Positions 39,570-54,624 of a stretch of DNA of 64,000 nucleotides are shown one piece after another; positions within the stretch are counted from its first letter, which is position 1; the number at the start of each line of letters is the position of its first letter. The stretch is taken from the NCBI GenBank assembly GCA_036824855.1, contig DAISZK010000004.1:13434-77433 (forward strand). The letters are read 5' to 3'. The stretch is from Chthoniobacterales bacterium (GTDB taxonomy: Bacteria; Verrucomicrobiota; Verrucomicrobiia; Chthoniobacterales; UBA6821). The notes below the pieces were generated by a model. That model was given only the letters and a program-made list of their open reading frames with translations, was not told where the DNA came from and did not search any database. Made by a program: the position numbers and the translations under genes.

Positions 39570-39613
39570 GAGGTGGGAGGAATGTCGTTAATTTAGGGTT
39601 GAGGAGGTTGAAA

Positions 39614-43508: not shown

Positions 43509-46500
43509 TTAGCCTCCTGATCTTTTGAAATCGACCCGGGTGCGGTGGTCGGGATTGGAGGAGTTGAAAGTGATGGTGTCCTTCACCCCATTCTTGAGAT
43601 CGATGGTCACCTGGGTGTGATCCTTATTCCAGATCGTTTCTGGAAGCTGCTCTCCCGTACGGAAGGGGAAAAGGAGTACCTTATACTTGGGCTCCATCAC
43701 CTGATTGCGGGTTATAAAGAGGCGACGGATGTCACCGTTGGTGGTGTCACTGCTCCCCGATTGTTTATGAACCTCAATTACAGGGTCCTTCTTCGGATCA
43801 GCCGTTTCGGAAAGATCCCGGACCAGGAGCCTGGGAAGACCGGCCTTATTGGGATCGTCGGCCGGCGCACTGTCCAATGGCGCGTGAAGCAAAATCGCCT
43901 CCGAAACAGTGGCTCCGGGCTCCGCATCAAGATCGGAAGGGATCTTTTTTCCCTCGCTATCAGTGAAGAGACTCGGCGGCCCGAACATCGTTGAACAATT
44001 CATCTGCCAGCGATAGTTCCGCGGCGTACCGTCCTTGTTGATATCGTCAACAATGAGTGCGTAGGGACGCTTTCCGCGGACAAAGAGAACCGTGCGGTAG
44101 GCATACTCGACGGGATTGTAATTCGTCGTGAGTTTCATCGGGGAATTCAGGTCGAACACGGCATCCGGATTCTTGGCGATGGTTGCCTCGTAGAAGCCGG
44201 GATACATGAAATCTCTGCGGCGCAGGGTGGTCTCCACCTGATTGTCGCCGTAACAGTAGGAATAGGCCGCCGCATTGTCCCCGGCCATGACCACGCAGGA
44301 CTTGTCGGGGGTTTCGGTAACCTTGAAGAGTTTTCCGGGAGGCGTGGGGAAGCAATGCTTGTAATCGGATCCCTGAGGGATTGCATTCGGCCCCTCACCC
44401 ATGAATCCCTGGGTTAGCACGTCATTCGTGTACCGAGGATCCTGAATCAGCACCTCGGATTGCCAGGTACTGTCGGTCACATGGTAGCCGGGAGCAAAAC
44501 TCCAGGGACGCCCTAGCGCAAAGAAGGAGAAGTTGCCCTTCTCGGCATGCATGTGTCCGGCACCATACCACCCCTCGTCGAAGTCGAGTTTCATGGCCTC
44601 CTCATCCCAACCCGTGCGGCAGACAACCACTCCCATCTGTGGATCCACCTTGGTGAGGACCGGGTTTTTCAGTCGAGCGACATCCTCCAGCGTGGTCGGT
44701 TTACCATTAATCCCCGGATCGAGGCCAAACAGCGTCTGAATAAACGGATTGAAGCCGAGGCCCGGGGCATTCCCCGCATAGATGTAATCCACGGCCGGAT
44801 CATCGGGGTACATGTATTTCATCATCACGACATGGTTCTGGCGGTAATCGCCGCCGCCGTCGTGGTGGTCGTAGAGAAAGTAATGGGAGCTGTAATTCTC
44901 CGATTTATTCTCCGCCGGAGCCTGATAGCAGGAGTAGAGGAGTTGGAGGACCGTGTTGTAAAAGAGTGAGGTGACAAATTGGTTCTCAGCACCATGACGG
45001 GCATAGGCGACCGGGGTCGGCCAGAGGCCCCAGGCGCTGAATCCGTAATAGGCTTCCCTGTTCGCCGTGAACCCCCATGGAGATACATAACCGTCGTCAT
45101 TGAACCAAATGGCCCGCTGCAGATTATCGATTGCCACCTTACGGGCAAAGGGCCACGAGCAAGCTACCGAGTAGGGATGACTCTCAAGGCATCCCCCTTG
45201 GGTATCCGCGCCGGCGGGATGCACCCAATCGTATGCTTTGTAGTCCGAGGAAGTGAGGTGGTCATCCGGAACAGGAAGATCAGTGAACGCTTTGACCACC
45301 TCTGGCGAGACCCCGCCCTCCTCACCTTCAAGAACCATGGCGTTAAGCACCTTTTCCTCCTCAATGTTCATGAAGTCTCCGTTTTGCTCATAGCCTCGCA
45401 GGAGTCGTCCGTGGATTCCGGAAGCGAAAAAGACCACACGGGCTCCGGTGGTCCGGCCGACGCTTTGGGCATAGAGGAAATCGCGGATCGCCCGCTTCTC
45501 AGGTGACGTCATCCACGATGCCGTGAAATCGTAGGCAAGCCCGAGCGAACTCATGTTCCAGTAAACGCCCCCGGGTTCGTTTAAGCCGTCCGGAAAAATC
45601 GGGTAATCCTTGTGAAAGGCCCCTGTTTTGGAGTCCCAGCATCCGTGCAGGAGGGTATAGCCAATGGAGGCGGTGATCTTGCCCAATCGGCGAAGGCGAT
45701 CCTTATTCGCAGCGGGTACCTGATCATGGGGGATCCTGGGATCTTGATCAATCCAGGCCACCAGCGTGGCATCCCGGAGTTGGTTGCAATATTCGTTGAA
45801 ATGGTTTCTCGCATCGCTCCAATCGGGCCCCTTGTCTCCCGGTTTGGATGGAATCCCCATGGTCAGGTCTGGCGCCGCGCCTTGGAATCCGGAATCCGCG
45901 AATTTGACAAGCTGATCACTCAGCTTCAGGAAATCCGATCCCGGCTTGTCAAAGCGCTCCTCCGTCTCTTTGCGAAGTTTGGCAAGGCACATGGAGGCAA
46001 TTTTCCCGTGCTGGGTGCGCTCGCTCAGTTCCGGCCAGTCTTGGGCAGTGGTATAGAGCCTTGGATGACAATATGGCCCGGGATCCGGCGAAAGCGTCCT
46101 GACCGAGGGTGGTGGCAGAATGCCGGGGGATGGGCAAAGGGGATCCTCCTTGCCCTCGCTCACAATGGGGGAGCGGAAGTTCCAGACATTGATCCAGCAG
46201 TTGCGCGAGAGCGAGATCCCGTGGACAGAGTCCGCGACCGTCAAACGAACCTCAAAGATTCCCGCACCTATGATCGAAACCTTGGTGAAAGCGGCGTCGT
46301 TGGGACTAAAAGAAACGGGATTCGCCCTTCCCATGGTGGCTGCAAACGGACTGAGTCGCTCCTGAACCTCTTCCCAGGAATAATGCAGCACCGCATCCTT
46401 GGGAAATCCACGCGTGATGGCGGAAATGGAGGTCTGAACGGGAAGGTCGCCGTGATCAGGAAAAAGGATAGGATGTTCGATCGAGAATACCAGCGATGGC

Positions 46501-46847
46501 TCGGAGTCAGGACTCAGATCGTGTGCGATTTCACGCAAATCCACACCCGGGATCGGCTTGATATCGGAAAAGGAGAGATGAAAGGGACTCCCCGCACCAT
46601 GTTTGGCCAGGAATCCCTCACCGTCCCGTTGCAGCAGGCTGACTTTGGTGCCAGAGGATAGGGTCACAGACCCAATCTGCACGCCGTCCCGAAGGAGAGG
46701 GGCCTTGATGGAGGCAGCAAGTTCACACTCCACAGAGGCCCCCAACGAGATGCCCATGAGTGCAATCAGGATGAGGAACGATGCGATCGGGAGACGTGGC
46801 CGAGGGCGCAAAACGTAAGTCATGAGGGAGTTTGTTGGATTTAGCAT
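43509..46847 (-). CDS. Secreted heparinase II/III-like protein, paralogue E (N-terminal PKD-like extension)
   Basis: 1112-aa ORF. Motifs YCHPRLYTTAQDWPELSERTQHG, WYGAGHMHAEKGNFSFFALGRPW (H-x-H core), KRPYALIVDDINKDGTPRNYRW and YKVLLFPFRTGEQLPETIWN. PKD-like segment IFEVRLTVADSVHGISLSRNCWINV. Confidence 0.6.
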   Translation of the reverse strand: MLNPTNSLMTYVLRPRPRLPIASFLILIALMGISLGASVECELAASIKAPLLRDGVQIGSVTLSSGTKVSLLQRDGEGFLAKHGAGSPFHLSFSDIKPIPGVDLREIAHDLSPDSEPSLVFSIEHPILFPDHGDLPVQTSISAITRGFPKDAVLHYSWEEVQERLSPFAATMGRANPVSFSPNDAAFTKVSIIGAGIFEVRLTVADSVHGISLSRNCWINVWNFRSPIVSEGKEDPLCPSPGILPPPSVRTLSPDPGPYCHPRLYTTAQDWPELSERTQHGKIASMCLAKLRKETEERFDKPGSDFLKLSDQLVKFADSGFQGAAPDLTMGIPSKPGDKGPDWSDARNHFNEYCNQLRDATLVAWIDQDPRIPHDQVPAANKDRLRRLGKITASIGYTLLHGCWDSKTGAFHKDYPIFPDGLNEPGGVYWNMSSLGLAYDFTASWMTSPEKRAIRDFLYAQSVGRTTGARVVFFASGIHGRLLRGYEQNGDFMNIEEEKVLNAMVLEGEEGGVSPEVVKAFTDLPVPDDHLTSSDYKAYDWVHPAGADTQGGCLESHPYSVACSWPFARKVAIDNLQRAIWFNDDGYVSPWGFTANREAYYGFSAWGLWPTPVAYARHGAENQFVTSLFYNTVLQLLYSCYQAPAENKSENYSSHYFLYDHHDGGGDYRQNHVVMMKYMYPDDPAVDYIYAGNAPGLGFNPFIQTLFGLDPGINGKPTTLEDVARLKNPVLTKVDPQMGVVVCRTGWDEEAMKLDFDEGWYGAGHMHAEKGNFSFFALGRPWSFAPGYHVTDSTWQSEVLIQDPRYTNDVLTQGFMGEGPNAIPQGSDYKHCFPTPPGKLFKVTETPDKSCVVMAGDNAAAYSYCYGDNQVETTLRRRDFMYPGFYEATIAKNPDAVFDLNSPMKLTTNYNPVEYAYRTVLFVRGKRPYALIVDDINKDGTPRNYRWQMNCSTMFGPPSLFTDSEGKKIPSDLDAEPGATVSEAILLHAPLDSAPADDPNKAGLPRLLVRDLSETADPKKDPVIEVHKQSGSSDTTNGDIRRLFITRNQVMEPKYKVLLFPFRTGEQLPETIWNKDHTQVTIDLKNGVKDTITFNSSNPDHRTRVDFKRSGG

Positions 46848-47102: not shown

Positions 47103-48350
47103 TCAGGGCGTTCTTTTTGAGAGAACAACTTCTTCATAGGAACGCACTTCTTTCATCCAATCTATAGCGACTTCGTTGCGACGGCAGAATTCATCCCAGA
47201 CAGCGCCCGTAGGCATTGTCTTGGATTCCTCCAACAATGCGAGTCGCTCCCAAAGAGCCCCCTCATCCTCGGCTTTGCGGATTTTCTCCAAGGGCTGGAG
47301 CATTGCTACAAGGAGTGCTTTCTGGGCGCTCCGTGTACCGATCACCCAGGCAGCGATCCGGTTGATCGAGGCATCGAAGAAATCAAGGCCGATATGCGTC
47401 CTTCCGAGAAAGTCACCTCGCACCAGTTCTTCCATGATGGCGATCGTAGGATCATCGAGGAGCACCACATGGTCGCTGTCCCAACGCACACCGCGGCTGA
47501 CATGGAGCAGGAGCTCGGGAACGAACTGGAGGACCGAGGAGATCTTGTCGGCCAACTGCTCGGTCGGATGGAAGTGACCGGCGTCGAGGCAGAGGAGCTT
47601 TTGGTTCTTCACGGCATACCCCAAGTAGAACTCATGGGATCCGACCACATAGCTCTCGCTGCCAATCCCAAAGAGCTTGCTCTCCACGGCGTCGAGATTG
47701 TGAGCGGGGTCGATCTTCTCCGAGAACATCTCGTCGAGTGCGGCTTCCAAGCGGATGCGCGGGGACTTGCGGTCGGCTGGGAGATCCTTGGAGCCGTCGG
47801 GAATCCAGACGTTGGTCACGCAGGTGGATCCGAGTTGGCGACCAATCTCGGCTCCGATTCGGCGGCAGGCCTTGCCGTGCTCAATCCAGTAATCGCGGAT
47901 TCCCTTGTCGGCACTCGAGAGCGTGAAGCCGGAGGCGGCCTTGGGATGCGCGAAGAAGCTGGGATTGAAATCCACACCCAGTCCACGGGACTTCGCCCAG
48001 TCGATCCATCCCTGAAACTCCTCGACGCCATAGTCACTCCTCTCCTTCTTTCTACCGCCCAGTTCCGCGTAGCAGGCATGGAGATTGAGACGGTGCTTTC
48101 CCGGAATCAGCGAAAGGGCTTTTTCCAAATCTTGGCGGAGTTCCGCAGGAGTCCTGGCCTTACCGGGATAGTTTCCCGTCGCAGCGAGACCGCTTCCAGC
48201 GAGATCCGTGCCGGCGTTTTCGAATCCCCCGACATCATCCCCCTGCCAGCAGTGGAGCGAGATCGGAGTAGCGGTGAGGCGCTTGATCACCTCTTCGGTG
48301 TCGACTCCGTGGGAAGCGTAGGTTTCCTTGGCGAGGATGTAGGCATTCAT
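47103..48350 (-). CDS. rhaA: L-rhamnose isomerase
   Basis: 415-aa ORF, colinear with E. coli RhaA over its full length: [111 protein letters not shown]. Confidence 0.95.
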
Positions 48351-48377: not shown

Positions 48378-49538
48378 TCAGGAGTGACCCTTGTACCAAG
48401 TGCCGATGCCGATGATGATCGTCGACAAAATCAGCGTAGCGATACCAAGGGCGATGAGCGTATGGGTCTTTTTGCTGGAGCCTTTCCACTCATGGAAGAT
48501 CCATCCCCACATCGTGCTGAAGATGATGATGCTCGCCATATGGAGGGTCCAGCTGGCGAACCCGAACTTGCCCATCTGGGTCTCGCCCATGGTGTAGAAG
48601 AAGAACTGCAGATACCAAATCGTCCCGGCTATCGCGGAGAAGACGTAGTTGTTGAACATCGGCACCTTCAAATCCCCATCAGCCTCGGTGACAAGAGAAG
48701 CCGCGCCATGCTCCCCTCCACCGGCTCCACCGAGCGCGGCATGCTCTTCGCAAATCGTGCCACTGAAATACTGATAGGCTGTGCCGTTCTTGAAATGGAG
48801 GTAGGCACACCAGAGGAAGTTCGTGGTGAACCCTCCGAGAAGCACGACCACAAGCTTGGGAAGTCCCGTCCAGATCTGATCGGTGCCCGCGAGGAGCGAG
48901 GCATCCCCGATCGGCTTGCCAGCGGTCAGCGCAAAGGCAAAGCAGGCGCTCATCACACCGGAGAACGTGGCGACGGCGATTCCTTTGGGAAAGTTGAACT
49001 CCTTGATCGTCTCGGTTTTCTGGGATGCATCCATCTCCCGTTCCTTGTTCAGCCCCGCCAGCGCCGCAAGGGCGATGCCGACGAGGCAGGCAAGAACGCC
49101 GATAAGGGTAATCTGGCCAGGGAGATTGGAGGCGATCTGGAGGATCGTCTCGTCGCAAGGAATCGATGGAATGAAAAGCTTGGCGATCGGCGGCAGCAGA
49201 GTTCCGAATGCCGCGCAATATCCGAGTGCCACCCCCATGCCGAGTGACATTCCGAGATAGCGCATGGTGAGCCCGAAGGTCAGACCACCCAAGCCCCAGA
49301 GACAGCCGAAGAAGTAAGTCCACCAGAGCGTGTTACCGCTCTGACGCAACAAAACCCCGTGGAGATCATGGGTCATCAGGAGCGCCAGAAGTGATGGCAT
49401 GATGATCCAGGAGAAGAATCCACCGACCATCCAGGCGGTCTCCCACGCCCACTTCTTTACGAAGCGGTAAGGGACATAAAAACTTCCGGAGGCAAAGCCG
49501 CCGAGCCAGTGGAAGAAGACGCCGAGAAATGGGTTCAT
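48378..49538 (-). CDS. rhaT: L-rhamnose/proton symporter
   Basis: 386-aa polytopic ORF matching E. coli RhaT landmarks: YVPYRFVKKWAWETAWMVGG, GLTMRYLGMSLGMGVALG, WYLQFFFY, SWTLHM. 27 nt upstream of rhaA. Confidence 0.9.
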   Translation of the reverse strand: MNPFLGVFFHWLGGFASGSFYVPYRFVKKWAWETAWMVGGFFSWIIMPSLLALLMTHDLHGVLLRQSGNTLWWTYFFGCLWGLGGLTFGLTMRYLGMSLGMGVALGYCAAFGTLLPPIAKLFIPSIPCDETILQIASNLPGQITLIGVLACLVGIALAALAGLNKEREMDASQKTETIKEFNFPKGIAVATFSGVMSACFAFALTAGKPIGDASLLAGTDQIWTGLPKLVVVLLGGFTTNFLWCAYLHFKNGTAYQYFSGTICEEHAALGGAGGGEHGAASLVTEADGDLKVPMFNNYVFSAIAGTIWYLQFFFYTMGETQMGKFGFASWTLHMASIIIFSTMWGWIFHEWKGSSKKTHTLIALGIATLILSTIIIGIGTWYKGHS

Positions 49539-49549
49539 GGCTAAGTGGG

Positions 49550-51196
49550 CTATTTGAGAATCCGGAAGGCATCAAAGGCTACATTGCCATCTCCTTTGAC
49601 GATGATCTTCACCTCGTGGTCTCCAGGAGTGAGATTCTCAATGCGGAACACGGGAACTTGAACAAAGCCCGAATACTGGAAATTACGGAGTTTGGTATCG
49701 ATGGTTCCGGCAGGCTTCCCGTCGATGAGGACATCAAAGGATCCGTTACCCTGGTTTTTTCCAGTCCAAATCTCCAAGCCCGATCCGCTGAAGCGGTACT
49801 CCGCGGTCGCACCCGGTGATCGTGTCAGGTGATAGTCCTTTTGATAATCCCTGGACGATGCCTGCGCGACGGCCTGCCAACCCTTTGAGTAACGGATCGC
49901 CGGATCGGTGTCATTGATCATCGATCCTTCGGGAAGCGGATTTTTACGGAGAAGGAGGGGAAAGCGCCAGATTTTGTAGATGGAGCCGGGAACATCCTTA
50001 AAGATAGTTCCCGAACTGAAGAGCTGGATCCGAACCCCGTCCGGGGTCTGCTCCTGGTACTTCGCGCAAAGATTCGGGCCATACATTCGCGAGTTGGCAA
50101 GGAAACTGTCATCCATCGAACCGACCTGATTCCACGGGCCCCAAGGATGGGGAGCCTCAAAGAAGTCGTAGACCAGCCGCTCAGGGTTAAACCATCCCTT
50201 GAGCGTCGGGGTGATATACCAAGAGACAAGAAGATATCGGTTCAGGCATGGAATGAAGACGGGAGCCGTCCAACCGAGTTTGGCGGGCCGGCTGAGGATC
50301 GGGGCGGCCTTGCCGATATCATGGCTCCATGAGGAATCCAGAAGCCCCTCCCCGCCTGTGAAGTATTCCCAATCCGAAACATTCAGTTTCGGCAGGTCGG
50401 TCCGAAGGACGCGAGCCAGGATGAGGTCGTCACCACCATTCCAGAATCCGTTGTTGGAAACGGCGTAGACGTATTTGTCCGCACCGTCGCGGGCAACCTG
50501 ACCGCCGTTTCGTCCATAATGAATGAAGGCAGGGGCGCCGAAACGACTCCCGGGCCACATGGGATGATCGTAGTTCTCTTGGGCGGAACGGGTCCATGTC
50601 AGCCCGTGGTCGGTGGACTTGATCAGGCTAGCGTTCAGCGATGTCTGGCGGAGAAGCGGGTCCTTGGAGTGGTTGCCGTAGTGGTTTCTGGCGACAAAGC
50701 AGTAGAAGACTCCGTCGACGCATTCCTGGCCGACCGCCTTCCAATTCCCCCCGTCATTCGTGGAAGTCCCGTTCATCGAGGCACCATTGCCGCCGTATTC
50801 ATCCATGGAATTGACTAATGATCCCTTTAGGGAGAACAGATCGCTGCCCGAAAGTTTGTTGAAACAAAGATTGCGTTCCTGGGTTCCGAATCCGCGGCCA
50901 TCGCAAGCGAAGTGATAGAGTTGGTCGTCATCGGCCCAAAACGGATCGGCAGTATCTCCCTTGGAATCATCCCATTTGAAGGCTTTGTCGATTTCCGGAA
51001 TCACTTGGGTAATTGGAACGGTGGGTTCCTCCGCAAAGGATGGAACAATCGCCGACCACGCCACGAAAATGGTCATTAGCGACGGCATGATGATCGAAGC
51101 TAGGAGGCCACCGAGCCTCGAGGAGGTCTTGAAGGCCCATGTCTTCGGGAAGCGGCAAGGGACCCCTGAAGCAAACACGCCAAGGAATAGATTCAT
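49550..51196 (-). CDS. Secreted BNR/Asp-box beta-propeller protein (DUF4185/sialidase-like) with C-terminal CBM-like beta-sandwich
   Basis: Asp-box KSTDHGLTW (S-x-D-x-G-x-T-W). Propeller-like segments YVYAVSNNGFWNGGDDLILARV...WEYFTG. C-terminal lectin-like domain YSKGWQ...AEYRFSGSGLEIWTGKNQGNGSFDVLIDGKPAG...GDHEVKIIVKGDGNVAFDAFRILK. I use ATG 51196 because the track start at 51235 is TTG. The stop is 11 nt from the rhaT ATG. Confidence 0.55.
   Translation of the reverse strand: MNLFLGVFASGVPCRFPKTWAFKTSSRLGGLLASIIMPSLMTIFVAWSAIVPSFAEEPTVPITQVIPEIDKAFKWDDSKGDTADPFWADDDQLYHFACDGRGFGTQERNLCFNKLSGSDLFSLKGSLVNSMDEYGGNGASMNGTSTNDGGNWKAVGQECVDGVFYCFVARNHYGNHSKDPLLRQTSLNASLIKSTDHGLTWTRSAQENYDHPMWPGSRFGAPAFIHYGRNGGQVARDGADKYVYAVSNNGFWNGGDDLILARVLRTDLPKLNVSDWEYFTGGEGLLDSSWSHDIGKAAPILSRPAKLGWTAPVFIPCLNRYLLVSWYITPTLKGWFNPERLVYDFFEAPHPWGPWNQVGSMDDSFLANSRMYGPNLCAKYQEQTPDGVRIQLFSSGTIFKDVPGSIYKIWRFPLLLRKNPLPEGSMINDTDPAIRYSKGWQAVAQASSRDYQKDYHLTRSPGATAEYRFSGSGLEIWTGKNQGNGSFDVLIDGKPAGTIDTKLRNFQYSGFVQVPVFRIENLTPGDHEVKIIVKGDGNVAFDAFRILK
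51071..51196 (-). repeat. Diverged partial duplicate of the rhaT 5-prime end (counterpart 49371-49538), in frame as the N-terminus of the beta-propeller gene
   Basis: Hand alignment of codons 1-42 (MNLFLGVF-ASG-VPCRFPKTWAFKTSSRLGGLLASIIMPSL-MT) against rhaT codons 1-56 (MNPFLGVFFHWLGGFASGSFYVPYRFVKKWAWETAWMVGGFFSWIIMPSLLALLMT). 28 of 42 aligned residues are identical, with three in-frame gaps. The similarity is also visible at DNA level (e.g. ATCATCATGCC, CGCTTC, GGTGG). Confidence 0.8.
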
Positions 51197-51252
51197 AGTG
51201 ATGGAGGAATGGGGGGGGTTACAGGACGTCGCCAATTAGTAGATATGACATG

Positions 51253-54200
51253 CTATAGTAAGCGATTAGTCCGAAGCCAGTCGCAGGCTTTGTCGAGCCA
51301 TCCCGGGGGACTCTTGTCGGGATTCTTTCCGTAACCGAAACCATGGCCGCCCACAGGGTATTCCTGTAAAGTTGAGGGAACTCCCATCGCCTGAAGGGCC
51401 TGATAATAGAGTTCGCTATTCTGAGAGGGAACGCCCTTGTCATCAAGGGCATGAACGAGAACAGTCGGCGGCGTATTCGCCGAGACTTGGGTTTCATTCG
51501 AAAGGGAATGCAACAGGGCTGGATCGGGATTCGGGCCCAGAAGGTTCGCAAAACTTCCGTGATGGGCGATATCAGGTCGTGAACTGATGACAGGATAGAC
51601 GAGCATGGCAAAATCCGGGCGGCAACCCATCCGGTCAACCGGATCACTTGCCTTGGGGTTTCCGGAATCAAAGTGCGTCGAAAGAGTGGAGGCGAGATGT
51701 CCCCCTGCCGAGAAGCCAATGACGCCTATTTTACGTGGGTCGACGTGCCATTCTTGGGCGTGACTGCGGACCAGTCGCATGGCGCGCTGAACATCCATGA
51801 GCGGAACCGGGTGCAGATACCCGTTCTTGGGAAGGCGATATCTCAGCACGAAGGCGGCAACCCCGTGTGACTGGAAGTATTGGGCAACATTCGTGCCCTC
51901 ATGTGTGATAGCCAGCCCTCCGTAGCCTCCTCCGGGACAAATCACAATTGCCGGCGCGGGAGATTTTGCTTCCGCTGGAAAATAGATAGTGAGGTCTGGA
52001 AGATCGGTGGTGTTCGTGCCTTTAGCTTCGGGAACAAGCCCTGGCCAAAGTGGAATGACCTGCTTAGGAGATTGTAAAAGTAACGTAGGCGGTGTTGGCA
52101 CAGGGGTATTAAACACTGCTTTGATATTGGTGAGAGTGGAAGTGAAGGAGTAACTTCCCGTAAGAGCTTCAAAAACTGATCTTCCATTCATGATGCCAAG
52201 TGATTTTGGAACCGAGGATTCACTCCTCTTTTCGATCATGCATGCTTCCTTTCCGGGCATCTCGATCCGCGCGGCTGTGCCCGCGGGAATGGTCACATTG
52301 AGGGTGAACTTTCCTCCCTCGACTTTCCAAGAGACATCGATCGTCCCGTGAGGTGTCGGGACAGAGCCCTTGGCCCAATTCAAACCGCAGGTTTCGGGCT
52401 TGATCAGAATCGTTCCAAAACCGGGCGAGGTGGGTCTCACCCCGAGGATTTTGCTCGGCATCTGATAGGCGGGTGTGGCGATCCATCCATGGCTGTAATC
52501 ACCTTTCTCAGGTCCCATCTCCCGGACGGTCTGTGTCTCGGGGATCACCTTGTACTCATGCATCTTCTGCACGCCGTATGTGCCAAAAAGCTGGGCCTCC
52601 TCAAGGGCATTGAAGACGAAGTGCATGAAGTAGGGAGTCACATCCCAGTTCGTGTTCGTCATGGTGGCCCCCATCACTGAGGTGCGACGATCCTGCGGAA
52701 CAAGTCCGGCGATCGTGGCCAGTGCATTGTTCTGCACGCTGAAGCTCTCCATCTGAACATCGGCAGGCATCCACCTATTAGTGCTGACGGAGGTCACGAA
52801 TGGCTTCCCGTCGCGGTAGAGTCCGCGTTCGGAGTTCCAGAGCTCCTTCTCGAAGGCTTCTCCGACCTGCTTGCGCAGCTTCTCATATTTCTCCGCATGG
52901 ACGTGATCTCCGTTGATTTGCGAGATGCGAATGGCGTCGCCCAAGGCCTGATAAAAGAGTGCCGTCATGTACCCCTGACCGATCACTGCGGGAGGGTGAT
53001 GGCAGGCAAAGGCAATCTTTGGGTTTTTATCGTCATGAACATTGACCCAATCCATGAACATGTAGTTCGGGGCCTCCGAAATGATGCCGTTCTTTCCGAT
53101 GTAGGAGGAGAATTGGTCGATAACCGCATGAACATTTGGGGCAAGTTCATCGATCAGACTACGGTCCCCAGTGTAGTCGTAGTAATTCAGCAGGGACTGC
53201 AACCAATAGAAAATGTAGCTGGTGTGAAAGGTCTGGTACTTGGCGTTCACCATCACCCAGGACCACTTTCGAAGATCCTGTTTGGCGAGCCATGGGTTGT
53301 TACCCATCGTGTAGTAGTTGACCAGGTCCGCGATCAGGTAATCACCGTAGTCGCTGATCGGCTCCTGATGCTGCGGCGAGTCGAGATGGTGGGTAATCAT
53401 GCAGATCTGGGTCGACCAGCGCCCGCTCTTATAGAGTTTGTTCAACTCCTCGTCACTGCAACTGAACGACCCGCGGTACTCGACTGGCTGTGAGAGAAAA
53501 TCAGCCGTCACATCAAGGATCTCCACCGGCGAGGAGGCGTTCCTAACCACTACGGTGACCGTTCCCAGGGCGTAGTAATCGCGCGACTCAAAGGTCTGCA
53601 CTCCATCGCGCAAGGCGATCTGATAGGCGCGACTGCCCCCAATGGCGCCGGTCTCATTCGAGAGGAGCAGGATCCGAGCCCCCTTGCATCCATTGACCTT
53701 GATGCCGCAACGACCCGACATGATCTTGTCAAAGTGGACAGAGAACTGACCGTCTCCCTTCACGACGATGGGATGACCGGGTGTGAGTGGTTCGTGGGGA
53801 ACCATCACGTTTCCCTGAACATTCATGATCTCAAAGTAGGGGTACCTCACCTCCATAAGCGGAGGAAGTTCACTCATCACCAACTGTTCCTTGGGAGCCT
53901 CGGTCACACTGCAAAAAGGCCAATTCGAGTCATCGTATCCTGCCTGCAGCCATCCTTGAGGCTCCGCTTCGGCATCAAAGAAAGGAAGGGGTCGCGGCTT
54001 TACCCCTAGCGCCTTGAGATCTTCCTCGGCAGGATTTTTCTTCAACAGATATCGAGAGGACACTCCTCTCCACGTCTCATCCGTGCCAAAGGTCACTTTC
54101 TTTCCATCGGGAAACTCCACCAGAAGTTCGAGAACCAGCTTGTTCGAGCCTGAACACTCTACGCACACCGCATTTTTCCTCTTGTGAAAGAGCGGAGTGA

Positions 54201-54624
54201 GATTGCGAATCTCATAGAATCTGCGTCCGCTGGAAGCCCCGACAAAGTCCCTACCCGGATCCGCGGAACCGCGACCCGCGGGAGTACCGTTCACATAAAG
54301 CAGGTAGTTGTCACCCGAGATCCAAGCAGTCACTTTTTTCGGGGCCTGATCCAACGTGATTTCCTTACGAATGCAGGTTGCGACCGAATCAGAAACCGCT
54401 TTGTCAGTTGAAGAAATCCACCGGGCCTGCCAATCGCCCTTCGGTTCTGGTTTTTCCCATTTGTATCCAGGCGCCTGAACCCCATCATGATCCACCTGTA
54501 CGTTCATTCCCGTGTTTTGGACGGGACCACGGGTATCGGTGGACTGGGCATAGGCCGAGCTCATGAGAAGCAGCAATAATGCGAAAGTAATCGTTATGGG
54601 TTTCTTTTTCATGAGAGATGGCAT
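51253..54624 (-). CDS. Bifunctional GH78-like six-hairpin glycosidase (alpha-L-rhamnosidase-like) fused to a C-terminal alpha/beta-hydrolase esterase
   Basis: 1123-aa ORF with signal peptide. Rhamnosidase-type N-domain WQARWISS...VTAWISGDNYLLYVNGTPAGRG. Six-hairpin region and C-terminal signature SHGWIATPAYQMPSKILGVRPTSPGFGTILIKPETCGLNWAKGSVPTPHGTIDVSW. The last about 285 aa (about nt 51256-52100) are an Aes/BD-FAE-type esterase: ICPGGGYGGL (oxyanion loop), GVIGFSAGGHLA (G-x-S-x-G), HALDD, GGHGFG. Confidence 0.65.
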   Translation of the reverse strand: MPSLMKKKPITITFALLLLLMSSAYAQSTDTRGPVQNTGMNVQVDHDGVQAPGYKWEKPEPKGDWQARWISSTDKAVSDSVATCIRKEITLDQAPKKVTAWISGDNYLLYVNGTPAGRGSADPGRDFVGASSGRRFYEIRNLTPLFHKRKNAVCVECSGSNKLVLELLVEFPDGKKVTFGTDETWRGVSSRYLLKKNPAEEDLKALGVKPRPLPFFDAEAEPQGWLQAGYDDSNWPFCSVTEAPKEQLVMSELPPLMEVRYPYFEIMNVQGNVMVPHEPLTPGHPIVVKGDGQFSVHFDKIMSGRCGIKVNGCKGARILLLSNETGAIGGSRAYQIALRDGVQTFESRDYYALGTVTVVVRNASSPVEILDVTADFLSQPVEYRGSFSCSDEELNKLYKSGRWSTQICMITHHLDSPQHQEPISDYGDYLIADLVNYYTMGNNPWLAKQDLRKWSWVMVNAKYQTFHTSYIFYWLQSLLNYYDYTGDRSLIDELAPNVHAVIDQFSSYIGKNGIISEAPNYMFMDWVNVHDDKNPKIAFACHHPPAVIGQGYMTALFYQALGDAIRISQINGDHVHAEKYEKLRKQVGEAFEKELWNSERGLYRDGKPFVTSVSTNRWMPADVQMESFSVQNNALATIAGLVPQDRRTSVMGATMTNTNWDVTPYFMHFVFNALEEAQLFGTYGVQKMHEYKVIPETQTVREMGPEKGDYSHGWIATPAYQMPSKILGVRPTSPGFGTILIKPETCGLNWAKGSVPTPHGTIDVSWKVEGGKFTLNVTIPAGTAARIEMPGKEACMIEKRSESSVPKSLGIMNGRSVFEALTGSYSFTSTLTNIKAVFNTPVPTPPTLLLQSPKQVIPLWPGLVPEAKGTNTTDLPDLTIYFPAEAKSPAPAIVICPGGGYGGLAITHEGTNVAQYFQSHGVAAFVLRYRLPKNGYLHPVPLMDVQRAMRLVRSHAQEWHVDPRKIGVIGFSAGGHLASTLSTHFDSGNPKASDPVDRMGCRPDFAMLVYPVISSRPDIAHHGSFANLLGPNPDPALLHSLSNETQVSANTPPTVLVHALDDKGVPSQNSELYYQALQAMGVPSTLQEYPVGGHGFGYGKNPDKSPPGWLDKACDWLRTNRLL

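What the first reader, a model, noticed from the sequence alone, without database searches (positions are those of the whole stretch)
51071..51196. N-terminus/signal peptide of the secreted BNR propeller gene is a diverged partial copy of the neighbouring rhaT 5-prime end
Codons 1-42 from ATG 51196 align with rhaT codons 1-56 (49371-49538), 1.6 kb downstream on the same strand. 28 of 42 aligned residues are identical, with three in-frame deletions of 7, 3 and 4 codons. DNA-level identity is visible too (ATGAA, GGCGT, CGCTTC, TGGGC, GGTGG, ATCATCATGCC). The copied segment corresponds to RhaT TM1 and the start of TM2. In the propeller gene, the TM2-derived stretch LGGLLASIIMPSLMTIFVAWSAIVPSFA followed by EEP reads like the hydrophobic core and A-x-A-type cleavage site of a signal peptide. 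This suggests either exaptation of a transporter TM segment as a secretion signal after a partial tandem duplication, or a scar from insertion of the propeller gene into an ancestral rhaT.
Basis: seen in the sequence. Interest (0 to 1): 0.6.

Follow-up and report, generated by a model that had tools for sequence, protein, structure and literature searches.

The report
Transporter start reused as export signal
The first 42 codons of a secreted glycosidase-like gene are a real, decayed copy of the start of the neighbouring rhamnose transporter gene, now apparently serving as its export signal. Two other sugar-cleaving genes in related bacteria show the same trick, and one such gene was moved into a sister strain by recombination through this shared piece.

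Summary
Residues 1-42 of the protein starting at ATG 51196 match RhaT residues 1-56 at 28 of 42 positions, with in-frame gaps of 7, 3 and 4 codons. The alignment score is 103, against 30 +/- 4.7 for shuffles.

Orthologues in three sister species carry ordinary, unrelated signal peptides, so the rhaT piece replaced the front of an existing signal peptide. The cleavage motif S-x-A|EEP is shared with an orthologue that has an ordinary signal peptide, so it probably predates the fusion.

RhaT topology (N-terminus outside, loop 1 inside) puts anything fused after TM2 in the periplasm.

The event is not unique. A GH78 rhamnosidase in species G002 and a second GH78-like gene on a metagenome contig both begin with RhaT 1-54, and both lie directly upstream of rhaT.

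That contig comes from a strain 99.3% identical to the window. It carries the extra gene as a 2.3-kb insert whose ends lie inside rhaT nt 74-88, with a foreign rhaT 5' allele. This is the pattern a double homologous crossover would leave.

How the first fusion arose is inferred, not shown. Export and cleavage are untested.

Verdict: a new variant of chimeric-gene formation, of moderate interest.

The parts
51071..51196 (-). rhaT-derived 5' segment of the propeller gene (codons 1-42). It holds a TM1 remnant (MNLFLGVFASGV), a basic loop (PCRFPKTWAFKTSSR) and the TM2-derived hydrophobic core (LGGLLASIIMPSLMT).
   Evidence: Aligns with RhaT 1-56 at 28/42 identities. Score 103 against shuffles 30 +/- 4.7. 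DNA alignments. In-frame gaps of 21, 9 and 12 nt.
51032..51070 (-). Rest of the signal sequence (codons 43-55, IFVAWSAIVPSFA). It extends the hydrophobic core and supplies the -3/-1 site SFA|EEP. It is probably the surviving 3' half of the gene's former signal peptide.
   Evidence: No similarity to rhaT beyond codon 56. Orthologue P0046, which has an ordinary signal peptide, ends ...NSTSLA|EEPSTPIAQIIPEI, against the window's ...IVPSFA|EEPTVPITQVIPEI. The (-3,-1) scan is.
49550..51031 (-). Mature passenger: a DUF4185/GH183-like five-bladed beta-propeller plus a C-terminal CE2_N/CBM-like beta-sandwich (stop codon at 49550-49552).
   Evidence: Pfam DUF4185 scores 36.1 bits (cut-off 39.5) and CE2_N 27.6 (cut-off 27.9). 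AlphaFold mean pLDDT 80.8, with residues 1-54 below 50. Best PDB fold match is endo-alpha-D-arabinanase EndoMA1 (8ic1/8hhv), E 4e-19, TM 0.52/0.58.
51197..51252 (-). 56-nt leader between the GH78-esterase gene and ATG 51196. It contains CATTCCTCC at 51203-51211, ending 6 nt before the ATG.
   Evidence: The same 9-mer sits 6 nt before the ATG of another window gene (ATG 39569) and upstream of rhaT in G010, G008, G017 and G007. It is a general leader word, so it gives only weak support for ATG 51196 as a start.
49539..49549 (-). 11-nt spacer between the propeller gene stop and the rhaT ATG.
   Evidence: The homologous junction in G020 has a 9-nt spacer and a similar 3' gene end.
49371..49538 (-). 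Source segment: rhaT codons 1-56 (TM1, cytoplasmic loop 1, TM2).
   Evidence: Pfam RhaT 220 bits. Ten hydrophobic segments, with K+R 14 in odd loops and 6 in even loops.
49452..49465 (-). Interval inside rhaT (nt 74-87) where a conspecific strain (contigs L034/L035) carries a 2.3-kb insert: [copy 3' part, GH78-like gene, 58-nt spacer, foreign rhaT nt 1-87].
   Evidence: Global alignment of L034 to the window: the flanks have 25 mismatches in 3401 nt. The left block ends at 49465 and the right block starts at 49454, with a last foreign base at 49452. Allele pattern.
48378..49538 (-). rhaT, intact (386 aa).
47103..48350 (-). rhaA, L-rhamnose isomerase.
   Evidence: Pfam RhaA 638 bits.
51253..54624 (-). 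GH78 rhamnosidase fused to a BD-FAE esterase, with its own ordinary signal peptide. Its orthologue lies directly upstream of rhaT in G010, G008 and G002. In G002 the orthologue carries the RhaT 1-54 front.

Best explanation
The 5' end of the DUF4185-like gene is a chimera. About 126 nt descend from the first 56 codons of rhaT (TM1, loop 1, TM2). They are joined in frame to the 3' half of the gene's former signal peptide, which kept its S-x-A|EEP cleavage site.

In RhaT the N-terminus faces out, loop 1 faces in, and TM2 runs from inside to outside. A protein fused after TM2 is therefore threaded into the periplasm, as in a laboratory PhoA fusion.

Since the fusion, the piece has drifted towards an ordinary Sec signal. 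Ten of the TM1 codons were deleted in frame, the only acidic loop residue became lysine, and one long hydrophobic stretch remains.

The chimera most likely arose when a [propeller gene, rhaT] segment from a relative recombined into a resident rhaT. One crossover would have been homologous, inside rhaT. The other would have been an illegitimate joint between two leucine-rich stretches, the end of TM2 and the signal-peptide core. The donor supplied a fresh rhaT 5' end, so rhaT stayed intact.

Once formed, such a gene is flanked by two rhaT homology arms and can move between genomes by plain homologous recombination.

Shown: the homology, the lineage-specific replacement, the recurrence with two other genes, and one recombinational import.
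Inferred: the first fusion step, export, cleavage, and ATG 51196 as the start codon.
For: Homology:
- Score 103 against 30 +/- 4.7 for shuffles. The DNA alignment scores 57 against 17.8 +/- 2.3.

Replacement:
- G020, G002, G008 and P0046 orthologues have ordinary, unrelated signal peptides. The G020 gene sits at the same place, 9 nt upstream of rhaT.
- The S-x-A|EEP motif is shared with P0046.

Topology and shape of the signal:
- K+R count is 14 in odd loops and 6 in even loops.
- The hydrophobic peak spans residues 28-46 and onward (KD19 2.02). K/R lie at 15, 18, 23 and 27, there is no acidic residue before 56, and SFA|EEP follows.

Recurrence:
- G002 GH78 (P0001, 882 aa) begins with RhaT 1-54 at 82% identity. 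Its orthologue in G010 has an ordinary signal peptide at the same position upstream of rhaT.
- P0004 (756 aa) is a different GH78-like gene that begins with RhaT 1-54. Its nearest homologues, P0164 and P0165, have ordinary signal peptides, and the ...GVFA|AEV type c-region is kept as GVMFSA|EDV.
- In both of these the internal Met47 is lost, so the RhaT part must be translated to give any hydrophobic core.

Purifying selection:
- The G002 copy against rhaT gives dN 0.059 and dS 0.61, with 7 nonsynonymous and 16 synonymous changes.

Import:
- L034 is 99.3% identical to the window in the flanks.
- Its insert ends lie at rhaT nt 74 and 85-88.
- Copy nt 1-74 are identical to the window rhaT.
- rhaT nt 1-87 differ at 11 sites (12.6%) and are of the G002 allele type. 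From nt 88 on, the difference falls to 1.1%.
- The window-type arrangement is on 12 contigs and the insert type on 2.
Against: - No experiment shows export or cleavage, and no signal-peptide predictor was available.
- An internal ATG (codon 37, window 51088) would give MPSLMTIFVAWSAIVPSFA, a short but possible signal peptide without a charged n-region. The rhaT-like part upstream of it could then be an untranslated relic.
- For the window copy, dN/dS (0.21, at saturated dS) cannot reject a model in which the copy lineage was neutral.
- Only two of the three in-frame gaps lie upstream of that ATG. The chance of both being in frame is about 1/9.
- The junctions of the first fusion are eroded, so neither homology-facilitated illegitimate recombination nor tandem duplication can be demonstrated.
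- All three copies share E33K (nt 97 G>A), and copies share two further bases pairwise. A single origin followed by passenger swaps is therefore not excluded.
- L034 and L035 may derive from the same sample.
Confidence: 0.75

Rival explanations
1. Untranslated relic. The rhaT-like stretch is a dead fragment of a disrupted rhaT. Translation starts at the internal ATG (codon 37, window 51088), giving a 19-residue signal peptide MPSLMTIFVAWSAIVPSFA. Only its first six residues (MPSLMT) would come from RhaT.
For: - Met47 of RhaT is kept in the window copy but not in the other two copies.
- The residues after it form a hydrophobic core of typical length (12), followed by PSFA|EE.
- One nonsynonymous polymorphism (F8S) sits upstream of it in conspecific strains.
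- dN/dS for this copy cannot reject neutrality in the copy lineage.
Against: - The frame from ATG 51196 is open. Both gaps upstream of codon 37 are multiples of three (21 and 9 nt).
- The short form has no K/R n-region, whereas the long form has four K/R and no acid.
- The two sister fusions cannot work without translating the RhaT part.
- The homology begins exactly at an ATG that is preceded, at 6 nt, by the leader word CATTCCTCC seen before other starts.
- Gene callers chose the 548-aa form on four other contigs: L034 and L035, L041 and L042.
Confidence: 0.2
2. Local partial tandem duplication only. A segment running from inside the propeller gene's signal peptide to rhaT codon 56 duplicated in place, and the upstream full copy of the propeller gene was later deleted. 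No transfer between genomes was involved.
For: - G020 shows the presumed starting state, an ordinary-signal propeller gene 9 nt upstream of rhaT.
- A single new joint would explain the chimera.
Against: - The model predicts a second propeller copy upstream, but the upstream gene is the GH78-esterase.
- GH78 directly upstream of rhaT is a common arrangement in the genus (G010, G008, G002). This fits an insertion between GH78 and rhaT better.
- The sister-strain event shows that insertion by recombination does happen at exactly this place.
Confidence: 0.2
3. Permanent membrane anchor. The RhaT-derived hairpin or long hydrophobic stretch is not cleaved, and it tethers the enzyme to the outer face of the inner membrane next to the transporter.
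For: - The hydrophobic stretch is 24 residues, longer than the usual 7-15 of cleaved signals and of transmembrane length.
- AlphaFold draws a helix at residues 37-48.
- In the G002 fusion the two-helix hairpin is largely preserved, although TM1 carries S19R and W11G. In the L034 fusion only TM1 is intact, because E39 and K44 break the first half of TM2.
Against: - The SFA|EEP site is conserved with orthologues that have ordinary, short signal peptides.
- TM1 has been largely deleted in the window copy, which suggests no selection for the hairpin.
Confidence: 0.25
4. Chance or convergent similarity between two hydrophobic N-termini.
For: None beyond the general compositional bias of hydrophobic segments.
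Against: - z is about 15 against shuffles.
- The DNA-level identity includes a 12-nt exact run, GATCATCATGCC.
- The homology starts at Met1 of both proteins.
Confidence: 0.01

Closest known systems
Laboratory PhoA/Bla topology fusions to membrane proteins, and signal-anchor sequences (from general knowledge)
   Same: A reporter fused after an inside-to-outside transmembrane helix is exported by Sec. Here a natural enzyme is fused after RhaT TM2, whose end is predicted to lie outside.
   Different: This is a natural event, it recurs, and it is followed by evolutionary remodelling (TM1 deletions, E33K). A signal-peptidase site inherited from the passenger's own former signal peptide probably releases the enzyme.
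Homology-facilitated illegitimate recombination in naturally transformable bacteria (de Vries & Wackernagel 2002; Prudhomme 2002; Meier & Wackernagel 2003, as summarised in PMC6382021)
   Same: One homologous anchor (rhaT) plus one short-microhomology joint would give exactly [resident rhaT 5' :: passenger, donor spacer, donor/resident hybrid rhaT] in a single step.
   Different: This is not demonstrated here. The one event that can be read base by base (L034) has two homologous crossovers. Competence of these Verrucomicrobiota is unknown.
Chimeric genes formed by partial gene duplication (for example, those reviewed in PMC3449122)
   Same: A new 5' end is recruited from a neighbouring gene.
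   Different: The recruited part supplies a targeting signal rather than a domain or promoter. No duplicate of the passenger remains. The same donor segment was used for three unrelated passengers.
Integron-type gene cassette capture
   Same: Genes stack one after another at one fixed site upstream of a conserved gene. L034 has two in series, each with its own rhaT front. Insertion places them under the local operon.
   Different: There is no integrase and no attC/attI sites. Insertion appears to use ordinary homologous recombination through a 74-165-nt repeat. Only three cassettes are known.

Membership tests
Sec-type cleavable signal peptide (signal peptidase I) | Positively charged n-region | tested here: met
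   K/R at residues 15, 18, 23 and 27, with no D/E before residue 56. The n-region is unusually long, at 27 residues.
Sec-type cleavable signal peptide (signal peptidase I) | Hydrophobic h-region of about 7-15 residues | tested here: inconclusive
   A strongly hydrophobic stretch spans residues 28-51 (KD19 2.02), but it is 24 residues long, which is transmembrane length.
Sec-type cleavable signal peptide (signal peptidase I) | Small residues at -3 and -1, and no Pro at +1 | tested here: met
   S-F-A|E-E-P at residues 53-58. The same motif, S-L-A|EEP, is in orthologue P0046.
Sec-type cleavable signal peptide (signal peptidase I) | Demonstrated export and cleavage | not testable with these tools
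   This needs PhoA fusions or N-terminal proteomics.
RhaT transporter (PF06379, DMT superfamily) | Ten transmembrane helices forming the full transporter domain | tested here: not met
   Only the equivalent of residues 1-56 is present, and Pfam RhaT does not hit the window protein. NCBI's name 'RhaT' for the G002 fusion P0001 is a mis-annotation.
DUF4185 / GH183 endo-D-arabinanase-like propeller | Pfam PF13810 match above the gathering score | tested here: not met
   36.1 bits against a cut-off of 39.5. Many homologues in the database carry the precomputed PF13810 label.
DUF4185 / GH183 endo-D-arabinanase-like propeller | Five-bladed propeller fold like EndoMA1 | tested here: met
   Foldseek top hits are 8ic1/8hhv, E 4e-19, TM 0.52/0.58, 13-14% identity. 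Catalytic residues and substrate were not examined.
Product of local partial tandem duplication | A second (upstream) copy of the passenger gene, or its remnant | tested here: not met
   The upstream gene is the GH78-esterase. The closest other own-genome match to the passenger covers only the C-terminal domain at 29% identity.
Product of homology-facilitated illegitimate recombination | One homologous and one microhomology junction identifiable against donor and recipient | tested here: inconclusive
   Signal-peptide regions of orthologues are too diverged to place the joint at DNA level. No donor was found.

The most novel reading that the evidence does not exclude
In this freshwater Verrucomicrobiota genus, the first ~165 bp of rhaT may act as a combined landing pad and export signal. 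Under this reading, a glycosidase gene that acquired a rhaT front is flanked by two rhaT homology arms. It could then be dropped by ordinary homologous recombination into any genome that has rhaT. On arrival it would be in the rhamnose operon and already export-competent, and such genes could stack in series. This would amount to integrase-free cassette capture.
Probability: 0.35. Interest if true: 0.75.

Novelty: new variant of a known kind. Interest (0 to 1): 0.55.

Why it matters
This gives a datable natural series for how a secretion signal can be made from a piece of a membrane protein. The series runs from a fairly intact two-helix copy (G002), through a partly remodelled one (L034), to a strongly eroded one that looks like an ordinary signal peptide (this window).

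It also shows a simple way for polysaccharide-degrading genes to be added to a sugar-uptake operon without mobile-element machinery, one that needs only homologous recombination.

On the practical side, it explains why at least one public record (the NCBI entry for P0001) names such a fusion 'RhaT', and it warns that N-terminal Pfam hits to transporters on secreted enzymes can be real homology with a new role.

Tried and rejected
- MPSLM at the start of the window's GH78-esterase gene (54610-54624) looked like another rhaT remnant. At DNA level it is chance: score 17-18 against shuffles 16.2 +/- 2.3.
- The leader word CATTCCTCC upstream of ATG 51196 is also upstream of rhaT in four relatives, which first looked like proof that the old copy marks the original rhaT start. 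The same word sits 6 nt before another, unrelated window gene, so it is a general leader word.
- DNA-level placement of the fusion joints against orthologues failed, because signal-peptide regions are too diverged.
- The search for the donor of the GH78-like cassette found no close relative. There was no match to its mature part in any of the 23 genus genomes (only its RhaT-like N-terminus hit). A sample of 201 genomes of the order gave at most 36% identity. The GTDB contig scan found nothing. The best metagenome homologue, P0164 (67%), is not next to rhaT.
- A mosaic test along the window's rhaT shows only that the first 120 nt are unusually uniform between species, which is not decisive.
- Shared derived bases among the three copies (nt 97, 103, 126) do not settle single against multiple origin.
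- The PDB sequence search with the mature part returned nothing.
- The literature searches found no described natural case and no open-text statement of RhaT topology.
Full report
**1.

The minus-strand ORF 49550-51196 starts MNLFLGVFASGVPCRFPKTWAFKTSSRLGGLLASIIMPSLMTIFVAWSAIVPSFAEEP. The rhaT gene, 1.66 kb downstream on the same strand (48378-49538), starts MNPFLGVFFHWLGGFASGSFYVPYRFVKKWAWETAWMVGGFFSWIIMPSLLALLMT.

- A BLOSUM62 local alignment of the N-terminus against the whole RhaT scores 103. Two thousand shuffles gave 30.0 +/- 4.7, with a maximum of 58.
- The alignment begins at Met1 of both proteins.
- The DNA alignment scores 57, against 17.8 +/- 2.3 for shuffles.
- The 7-codon gap lies between two CTCGGCG repeats of rhaT.

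**2. What the genes are**

- Pfam identifies RhaT (220 bits), RhaA (638 bits) and a GH78 rhamnosidase fused to a BD-FAE esterase upstream.
- The focal protein gives only sub-threshold DUF4185 (36.1 against a cut-off of 39.5) and CE2_N hits.
- An AlphaFold model has mean pLDDT 80.8, with residues 1-54 below 50. Its best PDB match is the GH183 endo-alpha-D-arabinanase EndoMA1 (8ic1/8hhv), with E 4e-19 and TM 0.52/0.58.
- The passenger is therefore a five-bladed propeller glycosidase-like enzyme with a beta-sandwich tail.
- The genome is a 2.56-Mb MAG. A sister genome (G020) is deposited as 'Spartobacteria bacterium'.

**3. The rhaT-like front is a lineage-specific replacement**

Orthologues have ordinary and mutually unrelated signal peptides:

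| Orthologue | Identity to window | N-terminus |
|---|---|---|
| G020 | 85% | MKPCATDIAKSTPFVPILLGTTLVLIAHLFG... |
| G002 | 70% | MTSKRDNLAILVIVILLLLKSGLC... |
| G008 | 61% | MKSPPFILFFFMAVLPATRILLAAE... |
| P0046 | 74% | ...AAVCAMYAANSTSLA\|EEPSTPIAQIIPEI |

- In G020 the gene sits at the same place, 9 nt upstream of rhaT, with a homologous 3' end.
- The motif S-x-A|EEP is shared between P0046 and the window (SFA|EEP).
- The rhaT piece therefore replaced the n-region and part of the h-region, while the old c-region survived.

**4. Why the piece can work as an export signal**

- The window RhaT has ten hydrophobic segments. K+R total 14 in loops 1, 3, 5, 7 and 9, and 6 in the others. This puts the N-terminus outside, loop 1 inside and the end of TM2 outside. 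A passenger fused after TM2 is therefore exported.
- In the window copy only about 10 residues of TM1 remain.
- The loop has K/R at 15, 18, 23 and 27 and no acid, because RhaT E33 is now K.
- One hydrophobic stretch (residues 28-51, KD19 2.02) precedes SFA|EEP.
- No predictor or experiment was available, so function is inferred.

**5. The same thing happened to other genes next to rhaT**

A search of the 23 genomes of the genus found rhaT in 11 and extra rhaT 5' copies in two, the window and G002.

*G002*
- A GH78 rhamnosidase directly upstream of rhaT begins MNPFLGVFFHGLGGFASGRFYVPHRFVKKWARKTVWLVGGFFSWIIIPSLLALLFLCSAICIAQT. This is 82% identical to RhaT 1-56.
- It is the orthologue of the window's 51253-54624 gene but lacks the esterase.
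- Its orthologue in G010 has an ordinary signal peptide at the same position.

*P0004*
- A word-indexed search of 5.8 billion proteins looked for RhaT-like N-termini on proteins of 485-1543 aa. It returned just two true fusions, the G002 protein and P0004.
- P0004 is a 756-aa GH78-like enzyme of a different type that begins with RhaT 1-54.
- Its nearest homologues, P0164 (67%) and P0165 (51%), have ordinary signal peptides.
- The c-region is again retained: GVMFSA|EDV, compared with ACGVFA|AEV.

*All three copies*
- In both of these fusions Met47 is lost, so the RhaT part must be translated to provide any hydrophobic core.
- The G002 copy shows clear purifying selection, with dN 0.059 and dS 0.61.
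- All three copies are old. Their dS to rhaT (0.6 to over 1) is similar to the dS between species.

**6. A recombinational import caught in a sister strain**

P0004 lies on contig L034 (ENA). L035 (JGI) is identical over the cassette. The flanks of L034 are 99.3% identical to the window (25 mismatches in 3401 nt).

The gene order on L034 is:
1. GH78-esterase 3' end
2. rhaT-front::propeller gene (99% identical to the window's)
3. rhaT-front::GH78-like gene
4. rhaT
5. rhaA

Relative to the window there is a 2.3-kb insert between window 49465 and 49454, which is rhaT nt 74/85.

- Left of the insert, the 33 nt upstream and nt 1-74 of the new copy are identical to the window's rhaT.
- L034's real rhaT differs from the window at 11 of its first 87 nt (12.6%). 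There it has the G002-type allele (CCGTTTTGTCAAAAAA instead of CCGCTTCGTAAAGAAG).
- From nt 88 on, the difference falls to 1.1%.
- The window allele is the majority state in the genus and is shared by the old copy, so the window state is native.

This pattern is what a double homologous crossover would give. The donor would carry [rhaT-front::GH78-like, spacer, rhaT], and both crossovers would fall inside the recipient's rhaT 5' end.

- A simple deletion from an L034-like ancestor does not reproduce the window's nt 75-87.
- A chimeric assembly would need long exact overlaps that the allele differences exclude.
- The window-type arrangement is on 12 contigs from several samples.

**7. How the first fusion arose (inference)**

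- A local tandem duplication gives the right joint but predicts a second passenger copy upstream. None exists.
- A one-step alternative is homology-facilitated illegitimate recombination, which is documented in transformable bacteria (PMC6382021). Donor DNA [passenger, rhaT] would pair through rhaT downstream of codon 56. Its other end, inside the leucine-rich signal-peptide core, would join the leucine-rich end of the resident TM2.
- This alternative explains four things:
  - rhaT stays intact;
  - the passenger is a gene found next to rhaT in other species (the propeller gene in G020; GH78 in G010 and G008);
  - the short passenger-rhaT spacer is shared with G020;
  - the gene now upstream (GH78) is the usual neighbour of rhaT in the genus.
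- The joints are too eroded to test this.
- Whether the three copies had one origin or three is open. They share E33K and a few other bases, which parallel selection for a basic n-region would also produce.

**8. Remaining doubts**

- An internal ATG (codon 37) could give a short signal peptide, leaving the upstream part a relic.
- Against this:
  - the frame is open, and both upstream gaps are in frame;
  - the short form lacks a charged n-region;
  - the two sister fusions need the RhaT part to be translated;
  - the leader word CATTCCTCC sits 6 nt before ATG 51196, as it does before another gene start.
- I put the relic reading at about 0.2.
- Cleavage against permanent anchoring is also open.

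**9. Novelty**

I found no described natural case in the literature library. The elements are all known: export by a transmembrane segment, chimeric genes, and recombination through flanking homology. The combination is new. One transporter's first hairpin was reused as the export signal for three different enzymes, and it also serves as a homology arm for moving them. I rate this a new variant of a known kind, of moderate interest.

Noticed in passing
window 51253-54624 compared with L020 1131-3689 and L015 4473-7121: The window's GH78 gene carries a C-terminal BD-FAE/Aes-type esterase domain (about 285 aa). Its orthologues in G010 (852 aa) and G002 (882 aa) lack it, so the esterase fusion is lineage-specific.
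   Followed up: partly
P0001 (G002, L015 4473-7121): NCBI names this 882-aa rhamnosidase 'L-rhamnose/proton symporter RhaT', evidently because of its RhaT-derived first 54 residues. This is a mis-annotation.
   Followed up: yes
P0002, P0003, P0005-P0007, P0011 (metagenome proteins): Many full-length RhaT homologues of 500-576 aa carry a hydrophilic, Ala/Lys/Glu-rich insert of about 120-190 residues in the central cytoplasmic loop between TM5 and TM6. Its function is unknown.
   Followed up: no
window 51203-51211 and 39576-39584 (minus strand); rhaT leaders in L020, L017, L022, L024: The C-rich word CATTCCTCC, which resembles the complement of a Shine-Dalgarno sequence, lies shortly upstream of several start codons. 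In two window genes it ends exactly 6 nt before the ATG. It may be a leader motif of this genus.
   Followed up: partly
rhaT, first 120 nt, across 9 alleles: The first 120 nt of rhaT differ by about 10-13% between most species of the genus (15% for G013). The rest of the gene ranges from 8% to 39% by window and species. This could reflect stronger constraint or more frequent exchange of the 5' end.
   Followed up: partly
G010:C58 (L016) and G008:C10 (L017): Two MAGs assigned to different species encode identical proteins in their GH78 3'-end and rhaT stretches (DNA not compared), and G010 has two rhaT loci. This points to strain mixture or cross-binning in those MAGs.
   Followed up: no
L015 1188-7121 compared with L022 and L023: In G017 and G013 a cytoplasmic protein of unidentified family lies directly upstream of rhaT. 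In G002 the same gene is separated from rhaT by two inserted GH78 genes. The site just upstream of rhaT seems to be a hot spot for gaining glycosidase genes.
   Followed up: partly
window 43509-46847 (minus strand): A 1112-aa protein with an N-terminal hydrophobic stretch, just downstream of rhaA, has no Pfam match at E 0.01.
   Followed up: no
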